A stretch of DNA of 24,000 nucleotides from Acidimicrobiia bacterium (GCA_022827405.1 JAJDTA010000212.1:23910-47909); one strand, 5' to 3'. Numbered from the stretch's first letter, positions 6,246 to 23,886 are shown. Translations and numbers: made by a program. The notes: generated from the letters alone by a model not told the origin.

Positions 6246-6875
6246 TCAGGCCCGGGCGAAATAGGGGTTGTCGCCGGCTTCGTGATCGGTGGCGTCCACC
6301 ACGTCGGTGATCTCGGGGATGGCCTCGGTGATCATCACGGTGATGCCCTCCCGCAACGTGGCCGCGCTCATGGCGCAACCCTGGCAGCCGCCGCCCATGG
6401 TGATGTAGGCGGTGTGCCCCTCCACCCCCAGCAAGTTGGCGAACCCGCCGTGGGAGGCCAGCGAGGGGTTGATGTGCTGGTCCAACAGCTGCTGGAGCTG
6501 CTCGGGGATGGTGCCCGAAAGCTCCAGGTCGGCGCCGGCCAGCAGATCAGGCTTGTTGGGGTTGCGGATCACCAGCCCGCCCTGCATGGGGTTGTTGGGC
6601 AGATCCAGGGTGGCACCGGTCAGGTTCTCCACCGACTCCTCGGGGATCATCACGGTGAGTCCACCGGTGATGATGTGGCGATGGCCCTCGGTGCAGTCGG
6701 CCACCTCCTCGAACGCCAGGTCGTAGGTGTAGTCGGCGCCGCTGGTGCCGGTGATCTCGATGCGCAGCCCTAAGGCTTCGGGATCGTCCTCGTTCGACCG
6801 GATGTCGAGCACCTTGTCGATGGCTGCTTCGCTGACTTCGAAAAGTTGGGCTTCCACGGTTTCGCTCACAACCAC
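6246..6875 (-). CDS. NfuA-like Fe-S cluster assembly/carrier protein (degenerate A-type N-domain + Nfu C-domain)
   Basis: Only the 3' ~207-209 codons of the 547-aa track ORF look protein-like. The N-terminal half resembles a HesB/IscA-like domain. The C-terminal half has INPSLASHGG...TMGGGCQGCAMS (Nfu CxxC motif). The start is GTG at 6875 or 6869, preceded by GGTAGGCTGG. The start position is uncertain by a few codons. Confidence 0.8.
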   Translation of the reverse strand: MVVSETVEAQLFEVSEAAIDKVLDIRSNEDDPEALGLRIEITGTSGADYTYDLAFEEVADCTEGHRHIITGGLTVMIPEESVENLTGATLDLPNNPMQGGLVIRNPNKPDLLAGADLELSGTIPEQLQQLLDQHINPSLASHGGFANLLGVEGHTAYITMGGGCQGCAMSAATLREGITVMITEAIPEITDVVDATDHEAGDNPYFARA

Positions 6876-6934
6876 CAGCCTACCCGAGCCCAACCTCTGC
6901 CACCATGGCCCAAAAGCCCGAACTGGGACTGGGA

Positions 6935-7753
6935 TCAACCGCGGCGGATTCGGCCGCGCAGCGCCCGGAAGGCCAATGATTGGGCCAAAAGCCCCACCAC
7001 GCCGATAGACAGCAGCGCCCGGCCCAGCGCCCATCCGTCCCAGCCCGAGAACAGCGAGCGCATGCCCTCCAGGGAATAGGTCATGGGGTTGAACCAGGTG
7101 ATGGCAGCCAGCCAGTCGGTCATCACATCGCGGCTTACCCAGGCGGTGGTCAAGAACATGAAGGGGAAGAACAACAAGAAGCTGGAGTTGACCGCGGCGG
7201 GGTTCCCGGTGCGCAGCGCGATGGCGTAGGGGAAGCCGGTGAAGGCCAGCCCCCACAGCGCGCCGAACAGCACGAACACCAACAGGCCCAGCACCCCGGT
7301 GGCGCCAAAGCTCACGCCGATGGCGAATCCCAACGCGATCACCGGTATGGCCATAACCACGAACAGGGTGAAGTCGGCCACCATGAGCCCCAACAGCAGG
7401 GCATAGCGGTTCACCGGGGTCATCAACAGCCGATCGAAGTAGCCGTCGGCGATGTCGATCACCAGCGAGTTGGCCCGGGACATGCCGGTCACCGCGGTCA
7501 TGATGGCCACCGGCAACTGGAAGGCCTTGTAGTCGATGTCGGAGACCACATCGCCGGCCAGGTTCTGGATGGCCCCGATGGTGACCATCAAGAAGAACAG
7601 GGGGATCAACATGGCGGGAATGATGGCTTCCAAGTCGCGGGGCAACAGCCGCAGCGCTCGGCTGGACACCGAGGCCATATCGCCGAAAAACCCCGACGGT
7701 CGGGCCCTGATCACATCGCCAGCAGGCCGGCCGGACAGAACGGCCTCGCTCAT
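6935..7753 (-). CDS. ABC-2 type transporter permease (DrrB-like)
   Basis: 272-aa ORF with about six hydrophobic spans. Its ATG overlaps the stop of the upstream ABC ATPase gene (ATGA, 7750-7753), indicating translational coupling. Confidence 0.85.
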   Translation of the reverse strand: MSEAVLSGRPAGDVIRARPSGFFGDMASVSSRALRLLPRDLEAIIPAMLIPLFFLMVTIGAIQNLAGDVVSDIDYKAFQLPVAIMTAVTGMSRANSLVIDIADGYFDRLLMTPVNRYALLLGLMVADFTLFVVMAIPVIALGFAIGVSFGATGVLGLLVFVLFGALWGLAFTGFPYAIALRTGNPAAVNSSFLLFFPFMFLTTAWVSRDVMTDWLAAITWFNPMTYSLEGMRSLFSGWDGWALGRALLSIGVVGLLAQSLAFRALRGRIRRG

Positions 7754-15093: not shown

Positions 15094-16092
15094 ATGCCCA
15101 CTACCCCTTCAAACGACCCTGGCCCTTCAAACGACCTTGGCCCACCCGGAGCCGCCGCCGACATCGACGCGATCCTGATCGTCTCCTTCGGAGGCCCCGA
15201 GGGGCCCGACGACGTGATGCCGTTTCTGCGCAACGTGACCCGGGGACGGGGCATCGGTGACGAGCGATTGGCTGCGGTGGCCGAGCACTACCACCTGTTC
15301 GGCGGGGTCAGCCCCATCAACCAGTGCAACCGCGACTTGATCTCCGCCTTGGCCGATGAGCTGGCCAGGCGCGGGGTAAAACTCCCGGTGTACTGGGGTA
15401 ACCGGAACTGGTCGCCCATGCTGGGCGACACGGTGGCCCAGATGCGCGACGACGGCATCTCCCAGGCGGTGGGATTCGTAACTTCGGCGTTCGGCTCATA
15501 CTCGGGCTGCCGCCAATACTCCGAAGACATTGAACAGGCTCGGGCCGCGGTCGGCCCCGACGCGCCAGTGGTGTACAAGCTGCCTCCGTTCTGGGACCAG
15601 GAGGGCTTCATGTCGGCCATGGCCGACTTTCTGGCCGCGGCCTGCCAGACCGACCCGACCGCCCCGGTGTTGTTCACCGCCCACAGCATTCCCGACACCA
15701 TGGCGGCCACCGCCCCCTACATCGCCCAGCTCAACGAGGCCTGCCTCCGGGTGGCGGCCCGCGCCGGAACGAGCCAATGGTCGCTGGCCTATCAGAGCCG
15801 CAGCGGCCCGCCCCACGTTCCCTGGCTCGAACCGGACGTCGGCAGCGAGTTGGATCGGCTGGCCGCGGGCGGAGCCGACGCGGTGATCGTGGTGCCGATC
15901 GGCTTCGTGGCCGACCACATGGAGGTGGTCTACGACCTCGACATCGAGGCCCGCCAGCACGCCGACATGCTCGGACTGCGATTCACCCGTGTCCCCACCG
16001 TCGGCACCCACCCCGCGTTCGTCGAGATGATCGCCAAACTTGTGCTGGGCCCTGCGCCGGTGGCCTGCCCCGCCGACTGCTGCCTGCGGTAA
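15094..16092 (+). CDS. hemH: Ferrochelatase (coproporphyrin ferrochelatase type)
   Basis: 332-aa ORF. Motifs present are ILIVSFGGPEGPDDVMPFLRNV, SPINQ, FTAHSIP (catalytic His) and PIGFVADHMEVVYDLD. No alternative in-frame start lies between 15094 and the conserved core. Confidence 0.92.
   Translation: MPTTPSNDPGPSNDLGPPGAAADIDAILIVSFGGPEGPDDVMPFLRNVTRGRGIGDERLAAVAEHYHLFGGVSPINQCNRDLISALADELARRGVKLPVYWGNRNWSPMLGDTVAQMRDDGISQAVGFVTSAFGSYSGCRQYSEDIEQARAAVGPDAPVVYKLPPFWDQEGFMSAMADFLAAACQTDPTAPVLFTAHSIPDTMAATAPYIAQLNEACLRVAARAGTSQWSLAYQSRSGPPHVPWLEPDVGSELDRLAAGGADAVIVVPIGFVADHMEVVYDLDIEARQHADMLGLRFTRVPTVGTHPAFVEMIAKLVLGPAPVACPADCCLR
15105..15140 (+). repeat. 18-bp tandem direct repeat (2 copies + 3 nt) inside hemH 5' end
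   Basis: cccttcaaacgaccctgg (15105-15122) and cccttcaaacgaccttgg (15123-15140) are 17/18 identical. The repeat is in frame and encodes PSNDPG/PSNDLG. Confidence 0.9.
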
Positions 16093-16118
16093 GTAGAGCT
16101 ACTCGCGAGAACCGATCT
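16084..16118. repeat. 35-bp perfect direct repeat, copy 1 (contains hemH stop codon)
   Basis: ctgcggtaagtagagctactcgcgagaaccgatct is identical to 16149-16183. It includes hemH ...CLR-TAA (16084-16092). Confidence 0.95.
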
Positions 16119-16148
16119 GGGCAGGCCCGCCTTCTCCAAGACCAGGAT

Positions 16149-16183
16149 CTGCGGTAAGTAGAGCTACTCGCGAGAACCGATCT
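16149..16183. repeat. 35-bp perfect direct repeat, copy 2 (contains AIM24-family gene 3' end)
   Basis: Identical 35-mer located 65 bp downstream of copy 1. On the minus strand it encodes the last residues ...EIGSRE-TAG of the 16164..16847 gene. Confidence 0.95.
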
Positions 16184-16847
16184 CGGTATTGATCCAGGCG
16201 ATGAGCTGGGCCTGGTTGCGGGTCTGGGTCAAAATGTCGCCGGGGCCGCTGAAGTGGAACACAAAGCCCTCGCCCGACTTCATCGACTGGATCGAGCGGC
16301 CCTCCACAGCCCGGCGGAGTTCGTAGCTCACGGTGTCGGGGAAGGCCAGCATGTGGCTGGTGTCCACCACCACCGTCTCGCCCGCGGCCAGCGAAATCAC
16401 GTCGATGGCCCCGTAAGAGGCCACCACCACGTTGCCGGTGCCGGTGGCGTGGGCCATGAACCCACCTTCGCCGCCGACCAGCGACTTGAAGCCGCTCCAC
16501 TTGGTGTCCATCACTACCGAGGCGTCGGAGGCCAGCCAGTTGCCTCGCTCGATGATCCATGATTGCGAGCCGTCCAACTCGATCACCCGGAGGTCGCCGG
16601 GCAATTTGGCGGCCACATCCACCCAGCCGCCCTCGGCGGGAGCGGTGTAGGTGGACACGAACAGCGATTCTCCGCCCAAAACGCTCCGCTTGAGCCCCTT
16701 GAGCATGCCGCCCTCCACCTTGGCCTCCAGCGACATCCCAGAGGAATGGGCCGACATGGCGCCCGCCTCGACCTTGACTTGCTCGCCCCCGCCCAGGGCG
16801 CACCGGGCGACCGCGAAGCTGGGGGCATGACGAATCTCTACCTGCAT
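16164..16847 (-). CDS. AIM24 / TIGR00266 (DUF124) family protein
   Basis: MQVEIRHAPSFAVARCAL...VKVEAGAMSAH...GGESLFVSTY...GGEGGFMAHATGTGNVVVASYGAI is the typical AIM24-family pattern. ATG at 16847 is preferred. An alternative start lies 6 codons upstream at 16865. Confidence 0.85.
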   Translation of the reverse strand: MQVEIRHAPSFAVARCALGGGEQVKVEAGAMSAHSSGMSLEAKVEGGMLKGLKRSVLGGESLFVSTYTAPAEGGWVDVAAKLPGDLRVIELDGSQSWIIERGNWLASDASVVMDTKWSGFKSLVGGEGGFMAHATGTGNVVVASYGAIDVISLAAGETVVVDTSHMLAFPDTVSYELRRAVEGRSIQSMKSGEGFVFHFSGPGDILTQTRNQAQLIAWINTEIGSRE

Positions 16848-16911
16848 GGGTGGGAGCCTACCCACCGTCTTCCGCCAACTGGTGGCGGTCTTGGGGGATT
16901 TCTATTGGCCG

Positions 16912-18480
16912 CTACCCGATGTTCTTGTCCTGGCCTTCCCAGTACGGCGCTCGCAGTTCCCGCTTGAGCACCTTCATGGCCCCGGACAGGGGCAGGGGCT
17001 CAGCCCGGAACTCCACCGACTTGGGCACCTTGTAGCCCGCGATGGTCTGGCGAGCGTGCTCGCAGACCTCCTCTTCGGTCAGCTCGTGGTCGGGCGTGGG
17101 AACCACCACCGCGTGGACCGCCTCCCCCCATACCGGGTCGGGAATCCCGATCACCGCCACTTGGGCCACACCGGGATGGGTGGAGATGGCGCTCTCCACC
17201 TCTGAGGAGTACACGTTCTCGCCGCCCGAGACGATCATGTCCTTCACCCGGTCGACCAAGAACAGATAGCCCTCTTCGTCGAGGTAGCCGGCATCGCCGG
17301 TGTGATACCAGCCGTCCCGGAACACCTCGGCGGTGGCCTCGGGCTTGTTCCAGTACTCCCGCATGTAGTTGCCGCCCCGGGCGCACACCTCGCCGATCTC
17401 GCCGGTGGGCAGCACGTTGCCGTCTTCGTCTTGGATGCAGAGGTTCACGCCGATCACCGAGCGGCCCACCGACCGCAGCCGAGGGCCGCCGGCCGAATGG
17501 TCTTCAGCCGAGAGAAACGTGAGCACCGACGAGCACTCGGTCATGCCGTAGCCCTGGAGCAGGTTCACGTCGGGCAGGTGCTCCAGCAGATGGCTCAAGA
17601 TGGCCTCGGGCATCGGAGAGGCGCCGTACACCAGCTCTCGCAGCGACGCCAGCCGCTCGGGCCGGTATTCGGGGTGCTGGATGCACAGGCCGATCATGGT
17701 GGGCACCATCACCGTTTGAGTGATGCCCTCGGCCTCGATGAGGTTCATCACCCCGGCGGGATCGAAGGCGGGAATGGTCACCATCTTGGAGCCGGCGGCC
17801 GGAATCACCAGCAAGCTGGCCATGGATGCAGCGTGGAACAGCGGCGTCTGGCTCAAGAACACGTCGTCGTCTCTCGTGCCTCCCAGCCCGATGGCCACGT
17901 GGTACACGTTGAGCATCTCGGCCCGCTGCTGGAGCAGCACCCCCTTGGGCAGGCCGGTGGTGCCGCCGGTGTACATGAGCACGACCGGGTCTTCTTCTTC
18001 GGGCTCGGGCGGCGTGGTATTGGCGCCGGCGGCCACCAGATCTTCGTAGGCCACATCGTGGGGCACGTCGCCTGAGCCGATGAGCACCACTTGGCGGATC
18101 GGGTTGTCGTCTGCGGCCTCCATGGCCTGGGCAAACAGCCCGGCGAAGAAGGCGTCAACAAAGACCACCTCGGTACCCGAGTCCCGCACGATGTATTCCA
18201 GTTCGGGACCGGCCAGCCGCAAGTTCAGCGGATTCACGATCCCGGCACCCAGGTAGCAGGCGTGGTACAGCTCCAGGTAGGACGCGCTGTTGAGGGCCAT
18301 GATGGCCACCCGGTCGCCCTTCTTCACCCCGAGCTCGCTCCCCATGGCATTGGCCAGCCGAGTAACCCGCTCGCCGTGGGTGGCGAAGTCGGTCCGGTAG
18401 GCACCGTCGACGATTGCCTCTCTGTTGGCGTACCGCTCCACTGCCGGGTAGAACAGCCGGTGATAGATCAGCTCTTTCAT
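16912..18480 (-). CDS. AMP-dependent acyl-CoA synthetase/ligase (FadD-like)
   Basis: ATG at 18480 gives MKELIYHRLFYPAVERYANREAIV.... AMP-binding motifs present are YTGGTTGLPKGV, GYGMTE and YHTGDAGYLDEEGYLFLVDRVKDMIVSGGENVYSSEVE. The 58 codons upstream in the track ORF are not protein-like. Confidence 0.9.
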   Translation of the reverse strand: MKELIYHRLFYPAVERYANREAIVDGAYRTDFATHGERVTRLANAMGSELGVKKGDRVAIMALNSASYLELYHACYLGAGIVNPLNLRLAGPELEYIVRDSGTEVVFVDAFFAGLFAQAMEAADDNPIRQVVLIGSGDVPHDVAYEDLVAAGANTTPPEPEEEDPVVLMYTGGTTGLPKGVLLQQRAEMLNVYHVAIGLGGTRDDDVFLSQTPLFHAASMASLLVIPAAGSKMVTIPAFDPAGVMNLIEAEGITQTVMVPTMIGLCIQHPEYRPERLASLRELVYGASPMPEAILSHLLEHLPDVNLLQGYGMTECSSVLTFLSAEDHSAGGPRLRSVGRSVIGVNLCIQDEDGNVLPTGEIGEVCARGGNYMREYWNKPEATAEVFRDGWYHTGDAGYLDEEGYLFLVDRVKDMIVSGGENVYSSEVESAISTHPGVAQVAVIGIPDPVWGEAVHAVVVPTPDHELTEEEVCEHARQTIAGYKVPKSVEFRAEPLPLSGAMKVLKRELRAPYWEGQDKNIG

Positions 18481-18534
18481 GAGCGCAACCGTAGCGCGAC
18501 GCAGGGTGGGCCGGAGCGGGTCGAAGGAGGCGAG

Positions 18535-19023
18535 ATGGACGTCGAAACCACAGTGCGATGGCTGAAGGATCGGGAGCTGATCAAGGAGGTTCCCCAGCGG
18601 TACGCCCGGGGAATCGATCGCATCGATTTCGACCTGGTGCGGTCTGCATTCCACCCCGACTGCCAGATCTCCGGGACGGTGATCTCAGGAGATCTCGATC
18701 CCTACCTCGACTGGACCGAAAAGGAGCTGCACAAGTTCGAGGCCACTCTGCACTTCATGGGCAACCAGTACATCGACTTGGAAGAGGGCGCCGACGAGGG
18801 CCATATCGAGACCTGGGCAGTGGCCTACCACATGCGCCCGGAGGACTCAGACGTGGGCGACCTCATCTTGGGCCTGCACTACTGCGACGACGTGGCCCGC
18901 TTCGACGACCGCTGGCTCATCACCGCCCGCACCGCCCGACCCCAATGGGCCCGCGGCGCCTTCCCCGCCCCACCTGAAGAGCTCAAAAGCACCTGGCACG
19001 ACGTGGATATCCGCCACGTGTGA
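18535..19023 (+). CDS. SnoaL-like / NTF2-fold family protein
   Basis: ATG at 18535 is preceded by a strong SD, GAAGGAGG (18522-18529). The 162-aa product reads DRELIKEVPQRYARGIDRIDFDLVRSAFHPDC...GHIETWAVAYH...RFDDRWLI, typical of SnoaL_4-type proteins. The last 10 codons plus the stop form repeat copy A. Confidence 0.8.
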   Translation: MDVETTVRWLKDRELIKEVPQRYARGIDRIDFDLVRSAFHPDCQISGTVISGDLDPYLDWTEKELHKFEATLHFMGNQYIDLEEGADEGHIETWAVAYHMRPEDSDVGDLILGLHYCDDVARFDDRWLITARTARPQWARGAFPAPPEELKSTWHDVDIRHV

Positions 19024-19041
19024 CCGAATGGCGGCGGCCAT
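18994..19041 (+). repeat. Recombination-core-like direct repeat, copy A (3' end of SnoaL-like gene)
   Basis: The sequence is tggcacgacgtggatatccgccacgtgtgaccgaatggcggcggccat. Its internal architecture is CACGACGTGG (18997-19006), ATATCCG (19007-19013) and CCACGTGTG (19014-19022). The arms are inverted repeats differing by one extra base. Confidence 0.85.
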
Positions 19042-19058
19042 CGGGAGGCCCAGTCAAA

Positions 19059-19086
19059 TTGGCATAGGTTATGCCATGCCTATGAT
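19059..19086 (+). promoter_or_regulatory. Candidate promoter with overlapping palindromic operator for vapBC module 1
   Basis: TTGGCA (19059-19064), a 16-nt spacer, then TATGAT (19081-19086). The perfect palindrome GGCATA-GGT-TATGCC (19061-19075) and a further CCTATG half-site (19079-19084) sit between them. The region lies 15-24 nt upstream of the antitoxin start candidates. Confidence 0.45.
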
Positions 19087-19100
19087 GCTATCTTGGTGTT

Positions 19101-19349
19101 GTGCGGACGATGATCATCCTTCCCGACCACCACCACGCTGAGGCCAAGCGCAAGGCCGCCCACGAGGGCATCTCGCTGTCGGAGTACATCCGCCGCCTGG
19201 TGGCCGACGACTTGGACCGGGCCAGCGCCGCGGCTGACCCCTCGATCGTGTTCGGGCTGTTCGACAGCGGAGGATCGAGGATCGCCAACGGAAAACAGGC
19301 CATGATCAGCGAGGCCATCGACAAGCAGTTCGCCGCCAAGGGCCTCTGA
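19101..19349 (+). CDS. vapB: Ribbon-helix-helix (CopG/Arc-type) antitoxin
   Basis: The 82-codon ORF starts at GTG 19101 or ATG 19110. IILPDHHHAEAKRKAAHEGISLSEYIRRLVADDL fits an RHH beta-strand plus helix pattern. The PIN gene follows 3 nt after its stop. Confidence 0.8.
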   Translation: MRTMIILPDHHHAEAKRKAAHEGISLSEYIRRLVADDLDRASAAADPSIVFGLFDSGGSRIANGKQAMISEAIDKQFAAKGL

Positions 19350-19352
19350 GCA

Positions 19353-19772
19353 GTGGCTCCGGTCTTCGTCGACACCAGCATCTGGTACGCCGCGGCCGAC
19401 GCCGGCGATGCCCACCGAGACGTCGCCCAGTCGCTGTTGGCCGAACGCGCCGGGGATCTCGTCACCAGCGACGTCGTGCTGGCCGAGTTGTGGAACCTGG
19501 TGACCGCCCGCACCAACCACGCATTGGCAAATCGCACAGTGGCCGCCATCGCCTCCGGCGTCGCCCGAATCGAATGCACAACCCCAGCCGACTTCGAAGC
19601 GGCCCAAGCAATGCTGGCCGACTACCCCGACCAATCGTTCTCCCTCACCGACCGCACAAGCTGGGCCCTCATGGAGCGCCTCGCCATCACCCAAGCACTC
19701 GCCTTCGACACCGACTTCCGCATCCACCGCTACGGCCCCCACAAAACCCAAGCCTTCACAGTCCACCCCTAG
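19353..19772 (+). CDS. vapC: PIN-domain toxin (VapC family)
   Basis: 139 aa. VFVDTSIWYAAAD (first acidic residue), VTSDVVLAELWN, SFSLTDRTSWALM and ALAFDTDF match the four conserved PIN acidic/polar positions. Confidence 0.85.
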   Translation: MAPVFVDTSIWYAAADAGDAHRDVAQSLLAERAGDLVTSDVVLAELWNLVTARTNHALANRTVAAIASGVARIECTTPADFEAAQAMLADYPDQSFSLTDRTSWALMERLAITQALAFDTDFRIHRYGPHKTQAFTVHP

Positions 19773-19789
19773 CGGCCATTGCCCACGTT

Positions 19790-19823
19790 TGGCACGACGT
19801 GGACATCCGTTACGTGTGACCGA
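19790..19823 (+). repeat. Recombination-core-like direct repeat, copy B
   Basis: tggcacgacgtggacatccgttacgtgtgaccga is 31/34 identical to copy A. It lies 17 nt after the vapC stop. Read in frame it mimics the SnoaL gene tail (WHDVDIRYV-stop versus WHDVDIRHV-stop). Confidence 0.85.
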
Positions 19824-19831
19824 TTCGCTGG

Positions 19832-19987
19832 TCAGAGTCCGAGCAGGTCGGCGATGAGCTCTCGGATCTGCTGCAATGCGACGGATCCGACGTTCGTGTT
19901 CGTCGTCTCGACGACGCGGTCGACGCTGATGGTGGTCGGCAGGTGTGCTTGGGCCACACCGAATCCGGTGACATCAACCTCGCTCAA
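19832..19987 (-). CDS. Hypothetical small protein (51 aa), divergent from the ATPase gene
   Basis: In-frame TTG at 19987 lies 6 nt downstream of a perfect AGGAGG (19994-19999, minus strand). About 80% of third codon positions are G/C. No recognisable domain (MSEVDVTGFGVAQAHLPTTISVDRVVETTNTNVGSVALQQIRELIADLLGL). The track ORF extends to 20017. Confidence 0.35.
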   Translation of the reverse strand: MSEVDVTGFGVAQAHLPTTISVDRVVETTNTNVGSVALQQIRELIADLLGL

Positions 19988-20021
19988 CCATCCCCTCCTG
20001 TTGGTAGTGCAGGGCACAACT

Positions 20022-20112
20022 GCGATTTCAGGAAATCGCGGCTGAACACCTCAGGATTACGCGACTGTAAATGCAATAATTTCGTGATTGAGTAGTCAAT
20101 AATTCCGCGATT
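20022..20112. promoter_or_regulatory. AT-rich divergent control region with palindrome and iteron-like repeats
   Basis: Palindrome GCGATTTC-AG-GAAATCGC lies at 20022-20039. The 16-bp direct repeats CAATAATTTCGTGATT (20074-20089) and CAATAATTCCGCGATT (20097-20112) are 14/16 identical and 23 bp apart. All contain CG[CT]GATT. In 20041-20120, 35 of 80 bases are G/C, far below the surrounding DNA. Confidence 0.45.
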
Positions 20113-20154
20113 AGGGGCTGCCGTGTTGCGTATTGGCAGCTAGGGTGGTTGAGA

Positions 20155-21432
20155 ATGGATGATCGACTGACTCCGGCCGGTTACCGGCCTCGGGTGGTGG
20201 ACGCAGAGGTGGATGGGGCGCTGCGGGCCTCATCTGCGGTGGTCATCGAGGGGCCGCGGGCGTGCGGCAAGACGTGGACCGGCCGACGCCATTCCCGCAG
20301 CGAGGTGCCGTTCGACGCGGTGTTCGAGAACCGTTTGGCGGCCCAGATCTCCCCCCAGGAACTCCTGGAGGGGCCGGTGCCCCGCTTGTTGGACGAATGG
20401 CAGCTCGCCCCCGATGTGTGGGATGCCATGCGCCGGGCCTGCGACGACCGGGGCGAGAAAGGCCAGTTCATCTTGACCGGATCGGCCAACCCGCCAGATG
20501 ACGCCACCCGCCATACCGGCACGGGCCGGATCATCCGGGTGAAAATGCGCCCGATGAGCCTGCACGAGAGCGGGGAGTCGAGCGGAAACGTCTCCCTTGG
20601 CGGGCTGTTGGCCTCTGAGCCGTGCTCGGCGCCAGCGCCAGGCCTCACGCTTCCCGACATCGTCGGCCTGACCTGCAGAGGGGGGTGGCCAGGTCTGTTG
20701 GGCGATTCGCCAGTAGCGGCCCAAAGGCAGCTTCGCAGCTATTTGGACGAGACAAGCCGCACCGATATCTCCCGTGTCGACGGCATTGCCCGCGACCCCC
20801 AAGGAGTGCGCCGCCTACTCACCTCTCTCGGGCGGAACACCTCTACCAACGTGACGTTCAAGACGCTGGGCGAGGACGCGGGCGGTAATGGCCAGACCCT
20901 GCACCCCCAGACAGTAAAGAGCTACCTAGCCGCTCTGGCCCGGTTGTTCATTACCGATGAGCTTCCGGCGTGGAGACCGCACCTGAGGTCCCGGGCCGAG
21001 CTCCGCAAAACGCCCAAGCGCTACTTCGCCGACCCATCTTTGGCCGTTGCCGCCCTGCGGACCAACCAGGAACAGCTCATGGAGGAGCTGAGCTTCTTCG
21101 GGCTGCTCTTCGAGTCGCTGGTGCTGCGCGACCTGAGGATCTACGCCCAGGCCAACGACTGGGAGCTGTCCCACTACCACGACAGCTCCGGGCTGGAAGT
21201 GGACCTGATCCTCACCAGCATGGACAACCGCAGATGGGCAGCAGCCGAAGTGAAGCTCGGCGGCGACAAGCTCGTCGAAGAAGGCGTCCAGTCACTACGC
21301 CGACTGCGAGACCGCATAGACACCAACCAGATGAGCGACCCTGCCAAACTCATGGTCATCACCGCCGGCGGCTACGGCTTCGAGTACCCCGACGGCATTG
21401 CCGTCGTCCCCATAACCGCCCTCGGCCCCTAG
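20155..21432 (+). CDS. AAA (AAA_14-type) ATPase with DUF4143 / PD-(D/E)xK-like C-terminal domain
   Basis: ATG is at 20155 (track start TTG 20149). Walker A is EGPRACGKTW and the Walker B-like block is PRLLDEWQ. The central YFADPSLAVAAL block is typical of DUF4143. The C-terminus GLEVDLIL...AAEVKLG gives a D...(D/E)xK nuclease-like motif. Confidence 0.85.
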   Translation: MDDRLTPAGYRPRVVDAEVDGALRASSAVVIEGPRACGKTWTGRRHSRSEVPFDAVFENRLAAQISPQELLEGPVPRLLDEWQLAPDVWDAMRRACDDRGEKGQFILTGSANPPDDATRHTGTGRIIRVKMRPMSLHESGESSGNVSLGGLLASEPCSAPAPGLTLPDIVGLTCRGGWPGLLGDSPVAAQRQLRSYLDETSRTDISRVDGIARDPQGVRRLLTSLGRNTSTNVTFKTLGEDAGGNGQTLHPQTVKSYLAALARLFITDELPAWRPHLRSRAELRKTPKRYFADPSLAVAALRTNQEQLMEELSFFGLLFESLVLRDLRIYAQANDWELSHYHDSSGLEVDLILTSMDNRRWAAAEVKLGGDKLVEEGVQSLRRLRDRIDTNQMSDPAKLMVITAGGYGFEYPDGIAVVPITALGP

Positions 21433-21466
21433 CCTGATACCCCCTCCCCCAGCGCTGCGCAGCGAC

Positions 21467-21514
21467 AGACGCGACTTGGACATCCGCCGCGGGTGATCGA
21501 ATGGCGATGGTCAT
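21467..21514 (+). repeat. Recombination-core-like direct repeat, copy C (degenerate)
   Basis: agacgcgacttggacatccgccgcgggtgatcgaatggcgatggtcat matches copy A at 37/48 positions in a gapless alignment. The central ACATCCG is retained. Similarity to A extends further 3' (cgaatggcg..gg.cat) than in copy B. Confidence 0.7.
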
Positions 21515-21544
21515 GCAGATTGCATGTAAGTATGCTTAATGCAT
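21513..21544 (+). promoter_or_regulatory. Operator-like palindrome cluster upstream of the second RHH-PIN module
   Basis: The sequence ATGCA-gat-TGCAT-gtaagt-ATGC-ttaat-GCAT holds two adjacent palindromes built from ATGC/GCAT half-sites in an AT-rich stretch that abuts the ATG at 21543. I could not place the -35/-10 hexamers confidently. Confidence 0.4.
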
Positions 21545-21770
21545 GGCTTCGCTTCAGATCCGCAACGTTCCCGACGATCTCCACCGCCGCCTGAAGGCCC
21601 GCGCCGCCCTTGAAGGGCGGTCGCTGTCGGAGTATGCGCTGGCCGAGCTGCGCCGGGCCATGCAGCGGCCCACAAGGCGCGAGCTGGTGGAGCGGGTGGC
21701 CGCATTCGAGCGCACCACCCTCACCGAGTCGTCCGCCGACGCGGTGCGCGCTGAGCGCGACGCGAGGTGA
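21543..21770 (+). CDS. FitA/VapB-like ribbon-helix-helix antitoxin
   Basis: 75 aa. MASLQIRNVPDDLHRRLKARAALEGRSLSEYALAELRRAM is the canonical FitA-like RHH N-terminus. Its stop overlaps the GTG of the PIN gene (GTGA at 21767-21770). Confidence 0.85.
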   Translation: MASLQIRNVPDDLHRRLKARAALEGRSLSEYALAELRRAMQRPTRRELVERVAAFERTTLTESSADAVRAERDAR

Positions 21771-22180
21771 TCGTCCTCGACTCCTCCGCGGTGGTGGAGT
21801 GGCTGCTGGGCCTTCCCCTCGCCGACGAAGTGGCCGACCGGATCATGGCCGCCGACTCCCTCCACGTTCCCGCTCTGTTGGATGTGGAAGTGGCCCAAGT
21901 GGTCCGCCGCTACGCCGCCGCCGGCGAGATCACCGCACAAATCGGCGAGCGAGCCCTCAGAGCACTCGCCGAACTCGACGCCGTGCGCTACACCCACGAA
22001 CTGCTACTCCCCTTGATCTGGAAACTCCGAGACAACCTCACCGCCTACGACGCCGCATTCGCAGCCCTAGCCGCCACCCTCAAGGCCCCCCTGGTAACCC
22101 TCGACACCCGCCTAGCCCGGGCCATTGCGGCCGAGATATCCAACCAACCGATCACAGTCGACCTGATAACGGGCCACTAG
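21767..22180 (+). CDS. vapC: PIN-domain toxin (VapC/FitB-like)
   Basis: 137 aa. The PIN acidic positions are IVLDSSAVVEWL, LLDVEVAQV, LTAYDAAFAALA and LVTLDTRLA. It overlaps the antitoxin gene by 4 nt. Confidence 0.85.
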   Translation: MIVLDSSAVVEWLLGLPLADEVADRIMAADSLHVPALLDVEVAQVVRRYAAAGEITAQIGERALRALAELDAVRYTHELLLPLIWKLRDNLTAYDAAFAALAATLKAPLVTLDTRLARAIAAEISNQPITVDLITGH

Positions 22181-22182
22181 CT

Positions 22183-22245
22183 GCCGCCCAAGCAATGCTG
22201 GCCGACTACCCCAACCAGTCGTTCTCCCTCACCGGGGGCCCTAGT
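22183..22245 (+). pseudogene. Remnant of a vapC (module-1-like) PIN gene
   Basis: 22183-22234 is 49/52 identical to 19599-19650, which lies inside the module-1 vapC. It encodes AAQAMLADYPNQSFSLTG versus AAQAMLADYPDQSFSLTD. After a 12-nt gap relative to vapC it continues with gggccct, then decays. It has no start codon, no 5' two-thirds and no partner antitoxin. Confidence 0.65.
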
Positions 22246-22338
22246 CGGCCCATCCGCCCCACCAGCAGCGCCGATAATCGAGTATCTTCATGTCACACTC
22301 GTTTCATGCCTAAGCTGGCCGAGCACGCTAGTTAAAAG

Positions 22339-22806
22339 ATGTCAGACCGCTCCTTCCTCGTCGTGTGCCAGACGGCCCGGTCCTCCGCCGTGGCGGTCCC
22401 TTTGGGCGTGCTGTTCCCTTGGGTGCGGGTCAGCGGGGAGACGTCCTACACATCCGACAGCGGGCTGGTGGTAGGCGTGTCGTCCACCACCGTGGAGGGA
22501 TACGAGACCGCCGACGGCATATGGATTTTCATACTGGGGTTCGCTGCCATCGTGGCCGTCGCCGTCTACAAGAACTCCGAGCGGCTGTGGACCCTCGTTT
22601 TGGCAGCCATGTTGTCGCTGGCCATCCTCGCGACAGCGATCACGGATATGGCATCGCTGCAGCGGCTGGCGAGCGACTGGCCCGAACCGCGGGAGGCAAG
22701 TGTCCACTTTGGTCTGTACATCGTGCTGATCGCCAGCCTCTTCCTGGCCGCGTCAATCGCATTGCTGGTCTGGGAGTACGCGAAACAGGACAAGGCCGAC
22801 CGATAG
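22339..22806 (+). CDS. Hypothetical small integral membrane protein (3-4 TM)
   Basis: 155-aa ORF. Hydrophobic spans are AVAVPLGVLFPWV, IWIFILGFAAIVAVAVY, LWTLVLAAMLSLAILATAI and FGLYIVLIASLFLAASIALLVW, with charged flanks. There is no clear SD and no recognisable family. Confidence 0.55.
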   Translation: MSDRSFLVVCQTARSSAVAVPLGVLFPWVRVSGETSYTSDSGLVVGVSSTTVEGYETADGIWIFILGFAAIVAVAVYKNSERLWTLVLAAMLSLAILATAITDMASLQRLASDWPEPREASVHFGLYIVLIASLFLAASIALLVWEYAKQDKADR

Positions 22807-22953
22807 CAGGGCCCTTCCGCAGCCAGCCATCTCGAGACCAAGCCCCACCCTCGCCAGCCGCCACCCGCTTCGACCACGACTGAGCACCTCCCATAGCTGT
22901 CTCAATCTCGTCCGACGAGCAGCCTAAGGGGTCGAGCGGGCAGACTACGGGCC

Positions 22954-23886
22954 ATGGGTGATCGACCAGTGGCGTTTGTGACCGGGGCTAGCCGGGGGAT
23001 TGGGAAGGCTTGTTCGGTGCATTTGGCCCGGGCGGGCTTTGATGTGGCGGTGTCGGCCCGCACGGTGATCGACGGCGAGCAGCGGGAGCACTCGTCCACG
23101 GTGAAGCGGTCGGACACCTCGCCGCTGCCCGGCAGCTTGTCGGCTACCGCCGCGCTGGTGGCCGAGGCTGGGGGCGATGCGCTGATCGTGGCGGCCGACT
23201 TGCTCGACTATGACTCTTTGGAAGCGGCGGCCGCCACGGTGTTGGCGCAGTGGGGGCGGGTGGACGTGGTGGTAAACAACGGGCGATATATCGGGCCCGG
23301 CCACATGGACCGCCTGCTGGACACCCCCATCGAGCTGCTGGACAACCATCTGAAGGCAAATTGCCTGGCGCCGCTGGTGCTCACCAAGGCGCTGTTGCCC
23401 CAGATGATCGAACGGGGCAGCGGCACCATCGTCAACATTTCTTCGGCCTCGGGCTACGCCGATCCCACCGAGGCCGCCGGCGACGGGGGCTGGGGCATGG
23501 GCTACGGCATCAGCAAAGGGGCCTTTCACCGGGTGGCCGGTTTCTTGGCCGTGGAACACGGCAGCCAGGGCATCAACGCCTTCAACGTGCAACCGGGCTA
23601 CATCTCCACCGAGCGCATCGCCCAGGACATGTCCCAATTCGGCTTCGAGGACACCGGCCAGCCCCCCGACGTGATCGGCGCGGTGGTGGCCTGGCTGGCC
23701 ACCGACCCCGAGGCCGCAGAGCTGAACGGCACCAACGTGGAGGCCCAGTTCTTCTGCCACGAGCGGGGACTGCTGCCCGGTTGGCCCGGCCCGGAGCCCA
23801 ACACCGCGGCCATCCGCTACGACTTGAGCGGCGCCATCTTGGCCGAGAAGGAAGCGCTGCTTCTGGCCCAGAGCACCCAAGAGTGA
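22954..23886 (+). CDS. Short-chain dehydrogenase/reductase (SDR) family oxidoreductase
   Basis: 310 aa. The Rossmann motif is VAFVTGASRGIGKA, followed by an NNG motif (VVVNNGRY) and the catalytic Y-x3-K (YGISKGAF). Confidence 0.9.
   Translation: MGDRPVAFVTGASRGIGKACSVHLARAGFDVAVSARTVIDGEQREHSSTVKRSDTSPLPGSLSATAALVAEAGGDALIVAADLLDYDSLEAAAATVLAQWGRVDVVVNNGRYIGPGHMDRLLDTPIELLDNHLKANCLAPLVLTKALLPQMIERGSGTIVNISSASGYADPTEAAGDGGWGMGYGISKGAFHRVAGFLAVEHGSQGINAFNVQPGYISTERIAQDMSQFGFEDTGQPPDVIGAVVAWLATDPEAAELNGTNVEAQFFCHERGLLPGWPGPEPNTAAIRYDLSGAILAEKEALLLAQSTQE

What the first reader, a model, noticed from the sequence alone, without database searches (positions are those of the whole stretch)
19827..21466. 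Cassette 2: AAA/DUF4143 ATPase with nuclease-like C-terminus plus a divergent 51-aa ORF, sandwiched between two VapBC modules. Candidate two-gene defence or addiction module
The 426-aa protein has Walker A (GPRACGKT) and Walker B-like (LLDEWQ) motifs and a DUF4143-type C-terminal half ending in GLEVDLIL...AAEVK. This is a D...(D/E)xK arrangement. To my knowledge DUF4143 is classed with the PD-(D/E)xK nuclease clan. The gene is transcribed divergently from a small ORF (19832-19987, perfect AGGAGG SD, TTG start, no recognisable fold). Both sit across a strikingly AT-rich, repeat-laden control region. The pair forms a discrete unit bounded by repeat copies B and C and is flanked on both sides by toxin-antitoxin pairs. 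That context is typical of defence or addiction islands. ATPase-nuclease fusions of this family are abundant but essentially uncharacterised. A dedicated small partner protein has not, as far as I know, been described for them.
Basis: partly seen in the sequence, partly recalled or inferred. Interest (0 to 1): 0.65.

Follow-up and report, generated by a model that had tools for sequence, protein, structure and literature searches.

The report
Lone ATPase-nuclease gene beside toxin remnant
The supposed two-gene module is one ordinary member of a very common but uncharacterised ATPase-nuclease family sitting next to the dead stump of a MazF toxin gene, but its upstream "repeat-laden" DNA is an array of binding-site-like boxes spaced exactly 23 bases apart that recurs in front of relatives of this gene in several bacterial phyla.

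Summary
The sequence features are real, but the two-gene interpretation fails.

**The ATPase.** The ORF (ATG 20155-21432, 425 aa) is AAA_14 + DUF4143. It matches PADLOC's single-gene defence candidate PDC-S01 over its full length (4.6e-64). Walker A, Walker B and E-D-ExK residues are intact.

**The "51-aa partner".** It is the 3' end of a 104-aa MazF/PemK toxin gene, about 90% identical to intact copies. It was cut at about 20027-20029, exactly where the ATPase unit begins. Its "perfect SD + TTG" lies inside conserved MazF codons (RRGWL). It accompanies the ATPase only in the closest relative, not in about 80 other homologous loci.

**The transferable unit.** It runs from 20030 to 21432, control region plus gene. 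It sits in a variable TA-rich hotspot between a SnoaL_4 gene and an SDR gene.

**The control region.**
- It holds four 13-nt boxes at an exact 23-nt period (20032-20113).
- The same 23-nt periodic array lies upstream of 60 of 79 homologues, and of 30-43%-identical homologues in Collinsella, Bacteroides, Prosthecochloris, Actinomyces and Mycobacterium.
- The period is kept while the box sequence differs from paralogue to paralogue.
- I infer self-binding through the protein's winged helix. I found no description of this in the library searched.

**Function.** A defence role is unproven.

The parts
18535..19023 (+). SnoaL_4-family gene (162 aa). It is a conserved core gene, and its last ~40-100 nt is the sequence copied as repeats A, B and C.
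   Evidence: Pfam SnoaL_4 3.1e-18. Window 16371-19027 is 89% identical to L006.
18994..19032 (+). Repeat copy A. This is the genuine 3' end of the SnoaL_4 gene plus 9 nt.
   Evidence: the repeat finder family D1; alignment A4.
19101..19772 (+). VapBC module 1: RHH-like antitoxin at 19101-19349 and PIN toxin at 19353-19772.
   Evidence: Pfam PIN 1.4e-13; weak RHH hits for the antitoxin.
19790..19828 (+). Repeat copy B, a duplicate of the SnoaL_4 3' end. It is followed directly by the mazF stop codon, as at the SnoaL_4/mazF junction of L006.
   Evidence: Window 19790-20026 matches L006 2707-2471 at 87% and L001 2466-2702 at 89%.
19832..20029 (-). 5'-truncated mazF/PemK toxin pseudogene, covering residues ~41-104 of 104.
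   Evidence: 92% identity to the 104-aa MazF P0121, E 4.5e-29. The frame is closed upstream. There is no Pfam hit on the fragment. Homology to intact mazF ends at 20026.
20032..20113 (+). Array of four 13-nt boxes at an exact 23-nt period. The boxes are 20032-20044 GAAATCGCGGCTG, 20055-20067 GATTACGCGACTG, 20078-20090 AATTTCGTGATTG and 20101-20113 AATTCCGCGATTA. The clade consensus is AATATCGCGAyTG with the palindromic core ATCGCGAT. This is an inferred operator/iteron-like binding array.
   Evidence: Alignments A2 and A5. Relatives show 23-nt spacing. Family-wide lag-23 signal. Strongest periodic segment of the window.
20117..20148 (+). Conserved dyad GGCTGCC-N12-GGCAGCT (20117-20142), followed by TAGGGT (20143-20148). 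TAGGGT is a TANNNT-type -10 candidate ending 6 nt before the ATG, which suggests a leaderless transcript. This is inference only.
   Evidence: Conserved in L001, L002 and L008. No compensatory changes were seen, so there is no evidence for RNA structure. The consensus sigma-70 scan found nothing.
20155..21432 (+). AAA_14 ATPase, winged-helix and DUF4143 (PD-(D/E)xK-like) protein of 425 aa, PADLOC family PDC-S01. With 20030-20154 it forms the transferable unit.
   Evidence: Unit borders come from L002 (window 20030-21430, 86.5% identity).
21442..21505 (+). Repeat copy C, a degenerate copy of the SnoaL_4 3' end lying directly after the ATPase stop codon.
   Evidence: Window 21442-21500 matches L006 2732-2674 at 78%.
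21543..22180 (+). VapBC module 2: FitA-like RHH antitoxin at 21543-21770 and PIN toxin at 21767-22180.
   Evidence: Pfam FitA-like_RHH 5e-13 and PIN 3.8e-13. In L008 this module lies on both sides of the ATPase.
22183..22254 (+). Remnant of a vapC1-like gene, 83% identical to 19599-19670. It is debris from an earlier rearrangement.
   Evidence: the repeat finder family D2.

Best explanation
The locus holds a single-gene unit (20030-21432), not a pair.

**The protein.** The unit encodes a 425-aa protein with three parts:
- an N-terminal AAA_14 P-loop ATPase;
- a central winged-helix region;
- a C-terminal DUF4143 domain with the PD-(D/E)xK nuclease motif (E320, D350, E365-x-K367) and alpha-beta-beta-beta-alpha-beta core.

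It belongs to the COG1373 / PADLOC PDC-S01 family.

**The control region.** The unit carries its own control region of four palindrome-cored boxes at a 23-bp period (about -123 to -42), placed just upstream of the promoter.

**Family-wide pattern.** The 23-bp period and the position of the array are kept in relatives from several bacterial phyla. The box sequence differs between paralogues, even within one genome. No other gene travels with the unit.

**Most likely mechanism (inferred, not shown).**
- The protein itself binds the array cooperatively through its winged helix, as an ATP-dependent oligomer.
- This sets its own expression or holds the nuclease in check.
- Its cellular role is probably nucleic-acid-targeting conflict or defence.

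**History of the locus (shown by comparison).**
- The ancestral arrangement was SnoaL_4 -> <- mazF <- mazE.
- The ATPase unit joined at mazF codon ~40, leaving the stump at 19832-20029.
- VapBC1 and VapBC2 entered through junctions marked by copies of the SnoaL_4 3' end.

For: **Identity of the ATPase**
- Pfam AAA_14 and DUF4143 hits.
- PADLOC PDC-S01 model PDLC04790 at 4.6e-64 over residues 11-425.
- 7595 homologues at E<=1e-10.
- Invariant Walker A/B and E-D-ExK residues.
- The AF2 model has a confident C-terminal half (pLDDT 82-96), with a helix-helix-helix-hairpin region and an alpha-beta-beta-beta-alpha-beta core that carries D350 on strand 2 and E365/K367 on strand 3.
- The weak Pfam hits of the C-terminal domain include named nuclease families (REase-ARP, PDDEXK_10); DUF234 and UPF0102 belong to the same clan to my recollection.
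- DUF4143/COG1373 is listed among PD-(D/E)XK families (PMC3424549). PDC-S01 is described as an ATPase fused to PD-(D/E)xK (PMC12988326).

**Small ORF is a mazF stump**
-.

**Unit borders**
- L002-L005 homology spans exactly 20030-21430.

**The array**
- Four boxes at 23-nt spacing, conserved in A2/A5.
- Lag 23 is the best autocorrelation lag in 60 of 79 homologous loci. It is the best lag in 0 of 74-80 loci at each of four control regions, and in 6 of 78 just downstream of the stop.
- 25 of 27 strongly 23-periodic windows in ~870 kb lie within 250 nt upstream of the ATPase start.
- The array is present in 30-43%-identical homologues of cultured Collinsella, Bacteroides, Prosthecochloris, Actinomyces and Mycobacterium.
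- Boxes differ between paralogues of one genome, and box similarity tracks protein identity.
- Promoter elements lie after the array in Collinsella (TATAAT) and Bacteroides (TAnnTTTG), read from the sequences printed.

**No conserved neighbour gene**
-.
Against: - Binding of the array by the ATPase is inferred only. The covariation of boxes with the protein could partly reflect shared descent of the whole unit, and no protein sub-region stood out.
- Foldseek gave no significant PDB match for the isolated C-terminal domain. The best PD-(D/E)xK hits were Cap4 (E 0.07) and Kpn2I (E 0.17), mixed with unrelated folds.
- The N-terminal ATPase domain was modelled with low confidence, pLDDT about 50.
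- The window's own boxes each deviate by about one base from the ATCGCGA core that is intact in L002, so this copy's array may be partly decayed.
- A defence function is unproven. PDC systems are untested candidates. The one PDC-S01 tested in E. coli B was not among the systems that protected against T7, T5 or T4.
Confidence: 0.8

Rival explanations
1. One reading: the ATPase and the divergent 51-aa ORF form a dedicated two-gene defence or addiction cassette.
For: - The ORF is open.
- It is preceded by AGGAGG 6 nt before a TTG.
- It is divergent from the ATPase across a repeat-rich region.
- The same arrangement recurs in L001.
Against: - The ORF is the C-terminal 64 residues of MazF. It lacks the N-terminal ~40 residues, and the fragment gives no PF02452 hit.
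- The SD-like motif lies in conserved MazF codons RRGWL.
- Across the 87 loci searched it lies beside an ATPase only in L001, which shares the same inherited junction and also has an intact mazEF.
- Other homologues have unrelated upstream neighbours.
- MazF stumps exist without any ATPase nearby.
- The ATPase unit in L002 starts at 20030 and excludes the ORF.
Confidence: 0.02
2. The array-plus-gene unit is a selfish mobile cassette. The protein recognises the 23-bp array at the unit's left end, and its nuclease and ATPase activities promote duplicative insertion or excision as a circle. 'Defence candidate' would then be a mis-assignment or a secondary role.
For: - The left border of the unit coincides with the first box, and the right border with the stop codon.
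- In close relatives the unit is bracketed by direct duplications of whatever host DNA lies to its right: 237 bp in L001, 59 bp in L002 and 685 bp in L008.
- Flanking direct repeats within 600 nt occur at 8 of 64 ATPase loci against 8 of 512 shifted control positions (Fisher p 9.5e-5).
- There are several paralogues per genome, and copies on plasmids.
- A box-like sequence lies in mazF exactly at the junction.
- Iteron-like arrays next to an Orc1/Cdc6-like AAA+/winged-helix architecture recall replication or transposition proteins.
Against: - No terminal inverted repeats were found, and an array is at one end only.
- Paralogues within a genome are only 55-63% identical, so there is no sign of recent bursts.
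- The duplications vary from 20 to 685 bp. This fits homologous (Campbell-type) recombination in a hotspot as well as an element-encoded mechanism.
- 87% of the loci have no flanking repeat.
Confidence: 0.1
3. The tandem 23-nt repeats encode a repeat RNA that neutralises the nuclease, as in type III toxin-antitoxin systems such as ToxIN.
For: - Short tandem direct repeats lie immediately upstream of a nuclease-type gene.
- A conserved hairpin-capable dyad separates the repeats from the ORF.
- The architecture resembles toxI-terminator-toxN (from my own knowledge of ToxIN).
Against: - Recognisable promoter elements lie downstream of or overlapping the last repeat in Collinsella, Bacteroides and the window, so the array is probably not transcribed with the gene.
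- No conserved promoter lies upstream of box 1. Homology between the window and L002 starts at the first box.
- Many box cores are palindromes (ATCGCGAT, TTGGCCAA, TTTGCAAA), as expected for dimeric DNA binders.
- There are no compensatory changes in the dyad, and no Rfam match reaches its gathering score (one sub-threshold hit, E 0.15).
Confidence: 0.04
4. The truncated MazF fragment retains a function of its own, for example as a decoy for MazE or a dominant-negative subunit.
For: - The frame is still open for 61 codons in both the window and L001.
- Gene callers predict 63-84-aa MazF-like proteins in other genomes.
Against: - It lacks its native start and the first ~40 residues of the toxin.
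- No promoter or antitoxin gene remains upstream, because the ATPase array abuts it.
- Retention of an open frame over 200 nt at ~90% nucleotide identity is expected by chance for a recent event.
- No mazE is left in the window, since tblastn with MazF found no other copy there (one search covers the loci; one search shows no candidate).
Confidence: 0.03

Closest known systems
PADLOC phage-defence candidate PDC-S01 (COG1373; Pfam AAA_14 + DUF4143)
   Same: - Full-length HMM match (4.6e-64).
- Same single-gene architecture of an ATPase fused to a PD-(D/E)xK-type domain.
- Same habit of sitting among TA and defence genes.
   Different: Nothing structural differs; this is a member. The family's function is unproven. 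It was predicted by guilt-by-embedding, and one representative gave no protection against T7, T5 or T4. The 23-bp upstream array reported here is not part of the family's published description as far as I could find.
MazF/PemK type II toxin (PF02452), for the small ORF
   Same: Residues ~41-104 are 80-92% identical to 104-aa MazF proteins of Acidimicrobiia. The position and orientation next to SnoaL_4 are the same as in L006.
   Different: The N-terminal ~40 residues, the start codon, the promoter and the mazE partner are all missing. The fragment no longer reaches a Pfam hit. It is a pseudogene.
Iteron arrays of plasmid Rep initiators, and Orc1/Cdc6 with origin boxes
   Same: - Three to five direct repeats at about two helical turns (22-23 bp) next to the gene of a winged-helix protein.
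- Whole-protein Foldseek hits include DNA-bound Orc1/Cdc6 (AAA+ plus winged helix), E about 0.03.
- A box-like inverted copy lies near the promoter (L002).
   Different: - There is no evidence of replication function.
- The gene is chromosomal and solitary.
- The protein carries a nuclease-type domain that Rep and Orc proteins lack.
- The similarity is architectural only, and the structural scores are weak.
Arch_ATPase + DUF234 proteins (COG1672), from my own knowledge plus a weak hit
   Same: An analogous P-loop ATPase, winged helix and PD-(D/E)xK-clan C-terminal domain. DUF234 is among the weak Pfam hits of the C-terminal domain.
   Different: It is a different Pfam family for both domains. 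No significant sequence similarity was shown here.
Type III toxin-antitoxin systems (ToxIN)
   Same: A tandem short direct-repeat array lies immediately upstream of a nuclease-type gene.
   Different: The repeats here appear to lie upstream of the promoter and have palindromic cores, which marks them as DNA sites. The toxin fold is unrelated.

Membership tests
PADLOC PDC-S01 / COG1373 | Full-length match to a PDC-S01 profile HMM | tested here: met
   PDLC04790 at E 4.6e-64, residues 11-425 of 425. Five further PDC-S01 models also hit.
PADLOC PDC-S01 / COG1373 | Domain architecture of AAA_14 followed by DUF4143 in one polypeptide, working as a single gene | tested here: met
   Pfam hits. No conserved neighbour gene across 80 loci. 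The unit borders enclose one ORF.
PADLOC PDC-S01 / COG1373 | Protection against phage or other mobile DNA | not testable with these tools
   PDC systems are untested candidates. One PDC-S01 tested elsewhere was not protective against T7, T5 or T4.
P-loop AAA-type ATPase | Walker A GxxxxGK[ST] and Walker B hhhhDE | tested here: met
   G33-PRAC-G38-K39-T40 and L78-L79-D80-E81 are invariant or nearly invariant in 46 homologues. The structural model of this domain is low-confidence.
PD-(D/E)xK nuclease superfamily | Catalytic motif D...(D/E)xK on strands 2 and 3, plus a conserved acidic residue in the first helix | tested here: met
   E320, D350, E365 and K367 are invariant. In the model, D350 lies on strand 2 and E365/K367 on strand 3.
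PD-(D/E)xK nuclease superfamily | alpha-beta-beta-beta-alpha-beta core fold confirmed by structural comparison | tested here: inconclusive
   - The predicted topology fits.
- Foldseek against the PDB gave no hit at E<=0.001. PD-(D/E)xK enzymes (Cap4, Kpn2I, PspGI) appear only among weak hits.
- Weak Pfam hits include named PD-(D/E)xK nuclease families (REase-ARP, PDDEXK_10).
- Literature lists DUF4143 in the superfamily.
PD-(D/E)xK nuclease superfamily | Metal-dependent phosphodiester cleavage | not testable with these tools
   Needs biochemistry.
MazF/PemK toxin (small ORF) | Complete PemK_toxin domain (~100-110 aa) with its own start codon | tested here: not met
   Only residues ~41-104 are present. 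Stop codons lie upstream in frame, and there is no PF02452 hit.
MazF/PemK toxin (small ORF) | Adjacent mazE antitoxin gene | tested here: not met
   The region upstream of the stump is the ATPase array. Intact mazE-mazF pairs are seen in L006 and L001.
   tblastn with MazF against 87 loci puts it beside an ATPase only in L001. Clustering of upstream ORFs finds no recurrent family.
VapBC type II TA (flanking modules) | PIN-domain toxin preceded by a small RHH/AbrB-type antitoxin with overlapping or abutting ORFs | tested here: met
   PIN at 1.4e-13 and 3.8e-13. FitA-like RHH at 5e-13 for VapB2, and weak RHH hits for VapB1.
Iteron-type binding array | Three or more direct repeats at a constant spacing of about 2 helical turns, maintained across relatives | tested here: met
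   23-nt period in 60 of 79 loci and in 6 distant isolates, and specific to the ATPase upstream region.
Iteron-type binding array | Bound by the adjacent gene's product | not testable with these tools
   Inferred from paralogue-specific boxes and the lack of any other linked gene.
Type III TA (ToxIN-like) | Repeat array transcribed from a promoter upstream of it, with the toxin gene downstream | tested here: inconclusive
   Promoter-like elements are found after or overlapping the last repeat, not before the array. No transcript data are available.

The most novel reading that the evidence does not exclude
The 23-bp-period box array is an undescribed, phylum-spanning cis-element of the COG1373/PDC-S01 family. 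Each paralogue's AAA+/winged-helix/nuclease protein would assemble on its own private array of 3-5 palindromic sites. This would make array plus gene a self-recognising unit. The unit would be autoregulated, and possibly able to move or be captured with duplication of flanking host DNA. If so, one of the most abundant 'candidate defence' genes in prokaryotes has a built-in self-DNA docking site, which would be central to how it is kept silent or how it spreads.
Probability: 0.35. Interest if true: 0.65.

Novelty: new member of a known kind. Interest (0 to 1): 0.4.

Why it matters
- **For the finding as submitted:** little. It is one more copy of a very common uncharacterised ATPase-nuclease gene next to TA debris, and the proposed novel partner peptide does not exist.
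- **The useful by-product:** PDC-S01/COG1373 is reported as the fourth most common candidate defence across prokaryotes and has no known mechanism. A conserved array with a fixed 23-bp period and paralogue-specific sequence in front of the gene gives a concrete experimental handle: a specific DNA ligand, a promoter to test for autoregulation, and box-swap experiments.
- **Flanking duplications:** these raise the question of whether these genes are defence genes, selfish cassettes, or both.
- **The locus itself:** it is a clear example of how a TA/defence hotspot is built by serial junctions that reuse the 3' end of a core gene.

Tried and rejected
- **PDB sequence searches** with the protein and with the 46-sequence profile gave no meaningful hit.
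- **Foldseek on the full model** returned only weak multi-domain hits: NLR/STAND proteins, Orc1/Cdc6, clamp loaders and some restriction enzymes. Foldseek on the isolated C-terminal domain was inconclusive.
- **NCBIfam and PHROGs** gave no family.
- **Phage genomes** gave only 7 metagenomic records of 50,697, so this is not a phage gene.
- **Rfam at relaxed threshold** gave nothing relevant in 18500-23000.
- **Consensus promoter/terminator scan** gave no sites. The -10 and leaderless proposal is therefore by eye only.
- **RNA consensus folding of the leader** showed no supporting covariation.
- **A TCGCGA-type operator shared by all homologues** is rejected. That box is confined to the closest clade (the loci with at least about 73% nucleotide identity to the window gene). 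What is shared family-wide is the 23-nt period, not the sequence.
- **Which protein segment co-varies with the boxes:** no segment stood out.
- **Integron-like attC or integrase-driven cassettes:** there is no recombinase in the window. The repeats are copies of a gene's 3' end, not attC-like sites. The tyrosine recombinase next to the unit in L002 lies outside the duplicated flanks.
- **Assembly artefact as the source of the repeats** is rejected. The copies are 79-95% identical rather than identical, and L008 comes from a chromosome-level MAG record.
- **Literature searches** for DUF4143, COG1373, PDC-S01, Rv2008c and iteron/23-bp terms found no description of the array.
Full report
**1. What is at the coordinates**

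The window is high-GC (66%) chromosomal DNA. Its best matches are metagenome-assembled Acidimicrobiia genomes, many with sponge-associated genus names or sample labels. The rest of the window carries housekeeping genes: Dxs, a UvrD-like helicase, ferrochelatase, an acyl-CoA synthetase and others. It has no recombinase.

Within 19030-22900 lie, in order:
- VapBC1 (19101-19772);
- a small minus-strand ORF (19832-20017);
- a 119-nt segment of 49% GC;
- the ATPase ORF (20149/20155-21432);
- VapBC2 (21543-22180);
- a vapC fragment (22183-22254);
- a 155-aa ORF with no family hit.

The ATPase hits Pfam AAA_14 (8e-13) and DUF4143 (1.3e-33). Homologues begin MDDRL/MADRL and are 425 aa long, so ATG 20155 is the probable start.

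**2. The small ORF is a MazF stump**

A search of 5.8 billion proteins with the 61-aa translation returned about 200 hits. Most of those listed are 104-aa PemK/MazF toxins, with a minority of shorter MazF-like calls. Identity over the whole query is 75-92%.

Aligned to P0121, the window encodes residues ~41-104 (...EIAVVPCTTNRRGWLSEV...LLGL*). The frame upstream is closed by stop codons. The fragment no longer reaches any Pfam model. The "perfect AGGAGG + TTG" is the codon run N-R-R-G-W-L, which is conserved in intact MazF proteins.

In the related MAG contig L006 the same core genes are followed directly by a convergent intact mazF-mazE pair. Those core genes are the AMP-binding gene and SnoaL_4, 89% identical over window 16371-19027. 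That is the ancestral layout. At nucleotide level, homology to intact mazF stops at window 20026.

**3. The ATPase is a one-gene unit that starts at 20030**

In contigs L002-L005 (ATPase 91% identical) the homology to the window runs exactly from 20030 to 21430. There the unit sits in a different place, immediately upstream of the SDR gene that lies at 22954 in the window. The mazF stump is therefore outside the unit.

Only L001 (94% identical ATPase) shares the stump-ATPase junction. It also has an intact mazF-mazE on the other side of the ATPase. tblastn with MazF against 87 fetched loci found it next to the ATPase nowhere else. Clustering all upstream ORFs of 80 homologous loci found no recurrent neighbour. 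Truncated MazF genes also occur in unrelated contexts without any ATPase.

That criterion is met, and the two-gene hypothesis is rejected.

**4. What the protein is**

- It matches PADLOC's PDC-S01 model over its full length (4.6e-64).
- PDCs are 145 untested candidates derived from genes embedded in BREX, DISARM and type I RM loci (bioRxiv 10.1101/2024.01.29.577857).
- PDC-S01 is reported as the fourth most common candidate across prokaryotes, and is described as an ATPase fused to a PD-(D/E)xK domain (PMC12988326).
- DUF4143/COG1373 is family 100 in the PD-(D/E)XK census (PMC3424549).
- One PDC-S01 tested in E. coli B was not among the four candidates that protected against T7, T5 or T4.

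In 46 homologues (59-94% identity) the Walker A, Walker B, E320, D350, E365 and K367 positions are invariant or nearly so.

The AlphaFold model is confident for residues ~131-425. It shows a helical/winged-helix region (helices 215-263, hairpin 267-292). This is followed by helix 312-333, three strands (336-342, 348-355, 361-367), helix 371-387 and a strand at 398-403. That is the canonical nuclease core, with D350 on strand 2 and ExK on strand 3.

Structural database comparison was not decisive. No PDB chain reached E<=0.001 for the isolated domain, and PD-(D/E)xK enzymes appear only among weak hits. The weak Pfam hits of the C-terminal domain include named PD-(D/E)xK nuclease families. I treat the nuclease assignment as well supported by motif, topology and literature, and as unproven biochemically.

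**5. The "repeat-laden control region" is a 23-bp periodic box array, and this is a family trait**

In the window, four 13-nt boxes start at 20032, 20055, 20078 and 20101. Relatives L002 and L008 show the cleaner consensus AATATCGCGAyTG at exact 23-nt spacing. Over all lags from 8 to 60, this is the strongest self-similar 69-nt segment in the 24-kb window: 0.61 against a mean of 0.26 and sd of 0.053.

The TCGCGA box itself is limited to the closest clade. The period is not.
- Across 79 homologous loci (47-91% identity), the -170..-20 region shows mean identity at lag 23 of 0.40, against a background of 0.25 (sd 0.02). Echoes appear at lags 46 and 69.
- Those loci include MAGs labelled Gammaproteobacteria, Solirubrobacterales, Gemmatimonadales and Longimicrobiales.
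- Lag 23 is the best lag in 60 of 79 loci. It is the best lag in 0 of 74-80 loci at each of four control regions, and in 6 of 78 just downstream of the stop.
- Scanning all ~870 kb of these loci, 25 of 27 strongly 23-periodic windows lie within 250 nt upstream of the ATPase start.
- The array is also present upstream of 30-43%-identical homologues on plasmids of cultured Collinsella aerofaciens, Bacteroides ovatus, B. uniformis, Prosthecochloris aestuarii, Actinomyces oris and Mycobacterium riyadhense.

Box sequences differ between loci, including between paralogues in one genome (L008, L012 and L043 of OZ246892.1). Within each array the copies resemble one another. Box similarity tracks protein identity: pairs at >=65% identity share boxes, with 0 of 999 Mantel permutations reaching the observed value.

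Many cores are palindromes, for example ATCGCGAT, TTGGCCAA and TTTGCAAA. Recognisable promoter elements lie after or over the last box: TATAAT in Collinsella, TAnnTTTG in Bacteroides, and TAGGGT ending 6 nt before the ATG in the window.

My inference is that these are double-stranded DNA sites for a dimer-based, cooperatively assembling protein. No other gene travels with the unit and specificity is paralogue-private, so the binder is most likely the ATPase's own winged helix. None of the literature searches found this described.

**6. How the island was built**

Repeats A, B and C are copies of the last ~40-100 nt of SnoaL_4. Every module is bracketed by such copies. This includes mazEF in L006 and a different 98-aa cargo gene in L001.

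The ATPase unit in close relatives is flanked by direct duplications of whatever lies to its right:
- 237 bp in L001 (SnoaL_4 end plus the mazF 3' part);
- 59 bp in L002 (SDR ribosome-binding site plus 17 codons);
- 685 bp in L008 (SnoaL_4 end plus the whole of VapBC2).

Flanking direct repeats within 600 nt occur at 8 of 64 ATPase loci against 8 of 512 shifted control positions (p 9.5e-5). This fits single-crossover integration of circles that carry the unit plus a piece of host DNA. It could also reflect another duplicative insertion route. An element-encoded mechanism is possible but not shown.

**7. Verdict**

- The ATPase-nuclease is a new member of a known, abundant, functionally untested family.
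- The small ORF is pseudogene debris, and there is no two-gene module.
- The finding as submitted is ordinary.
- The conserved 23-bp array, and to a lesser degree the insertion signature, are the parts worth following up. They account for the moderate interest score.

Noticed in passing
window 20030-21432; L001 791-1027 / 2466-2702; L002 4775-4833 / 6325-6383; L008 4180-4864 / 6297-6981: ATPase units are bracketed by direct duplications of local host DNA of variable length (59-685 bp in the closest relatives). Family-wide, 8 of 64 loci show this against 8 of 512 control positions (p about 1e-4). This suggests Campbell-type or other duplicative insertion.
   Followed up: partly
window 18994-19032, 19790-19828, 21442-21505; L006 1984-2078 and 2674-2732; L001 53-87, 791-831, 2419-2501: Every module of the island is bounded by a copy of the 3' end of the SnoaL_4 gene. 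The modules are VapBC1, the mazF stump plus ATPase, and VapBC2, plus mazEF in L006 and a 98-aa ORF in L001. The slot between SnoaL_4 and the SDR gene behaves like a cassette hotspot with different cargo in different strains. No recombinase is present in the window.
   Followed up: partly
window 20017-20029 vs 20032-20044: A 13-nt inverted repeat (85% complementary) spans the mazF/ATPase-unit junction. The mazF codons E-I-A-V-V read as a box-like GAAATCGCAGTTG facing box 1, GAAATCGCGGCTG. This may be microhomology or site preference at the insertion point, or chance.
   Followed up: no
L074 about 6320-6400 (downstream of its ATPase): A second three-unit copy of that locus's own 23-nt array (TTTGATGCATTGA type) lies just after the gene, so the ATPase there is flanked by arrays on both sides.
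   Followed up: no
window 22183-22254; L001 3067-3159: Fragments of a vapC1-like gene lie after VapC2 in the window and next to mazE in L001. The L001 fragment is 97% identical to window 19682-19774. These are debris from earlier rearrangements of the island.
   Followed up: partly
L088 4001-4192; L090 4001-4252: N-terminally shortened MazF-like ORFs of 63 and 83 aa (89% and 82% identical to the window stump) occur in unrelated chromosomal contexts. One search lists several more of 63-93 aa without a PemK Pfam hit. MazF decay seems recurrent in these genomes.
   Followed up: partly
Genome-contig loci L008-L087: Several divergent paralogues occur per genome, for example three in OZ246892.1. Relatives at 47-55% identity sit in MAGs labelled Gammaproteobacteria or Pseudomonadales whose isolate names share a prefix (jk18x...) with an Acidimicrobiia MAG. 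This hints at exchange within one community.
   Followed up: no
L002 3686-4591: A XerC/D-like tyrosine recombinase gene (301 aa) lies just upstream of the duplicated SDR 5' fragment and the ATPase unit. It is outside the duplicated flanks.
   Followed up: no
window 16084-16121 and 16149-16186: Two 38-nt direct repeats, 97% identical and 65 nt apart, lie between the ferrochelatase gene and a divergent 234-aa ORF with no Pfam hit. Each contains the dyad AGTAGAGCTACT and a TCGCGA. This is probably an operator pair for an unrelated regulator.
   Followed up: no
window 22339-22806: A 155-aa ORF with hydrophobic segments and no Pfam hit lies between the vapC remnant and the SDR gene. It is absent from that position in L001, L002 and L008, so it is probably another cargo gene of the hotspot.
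   Followed up: no
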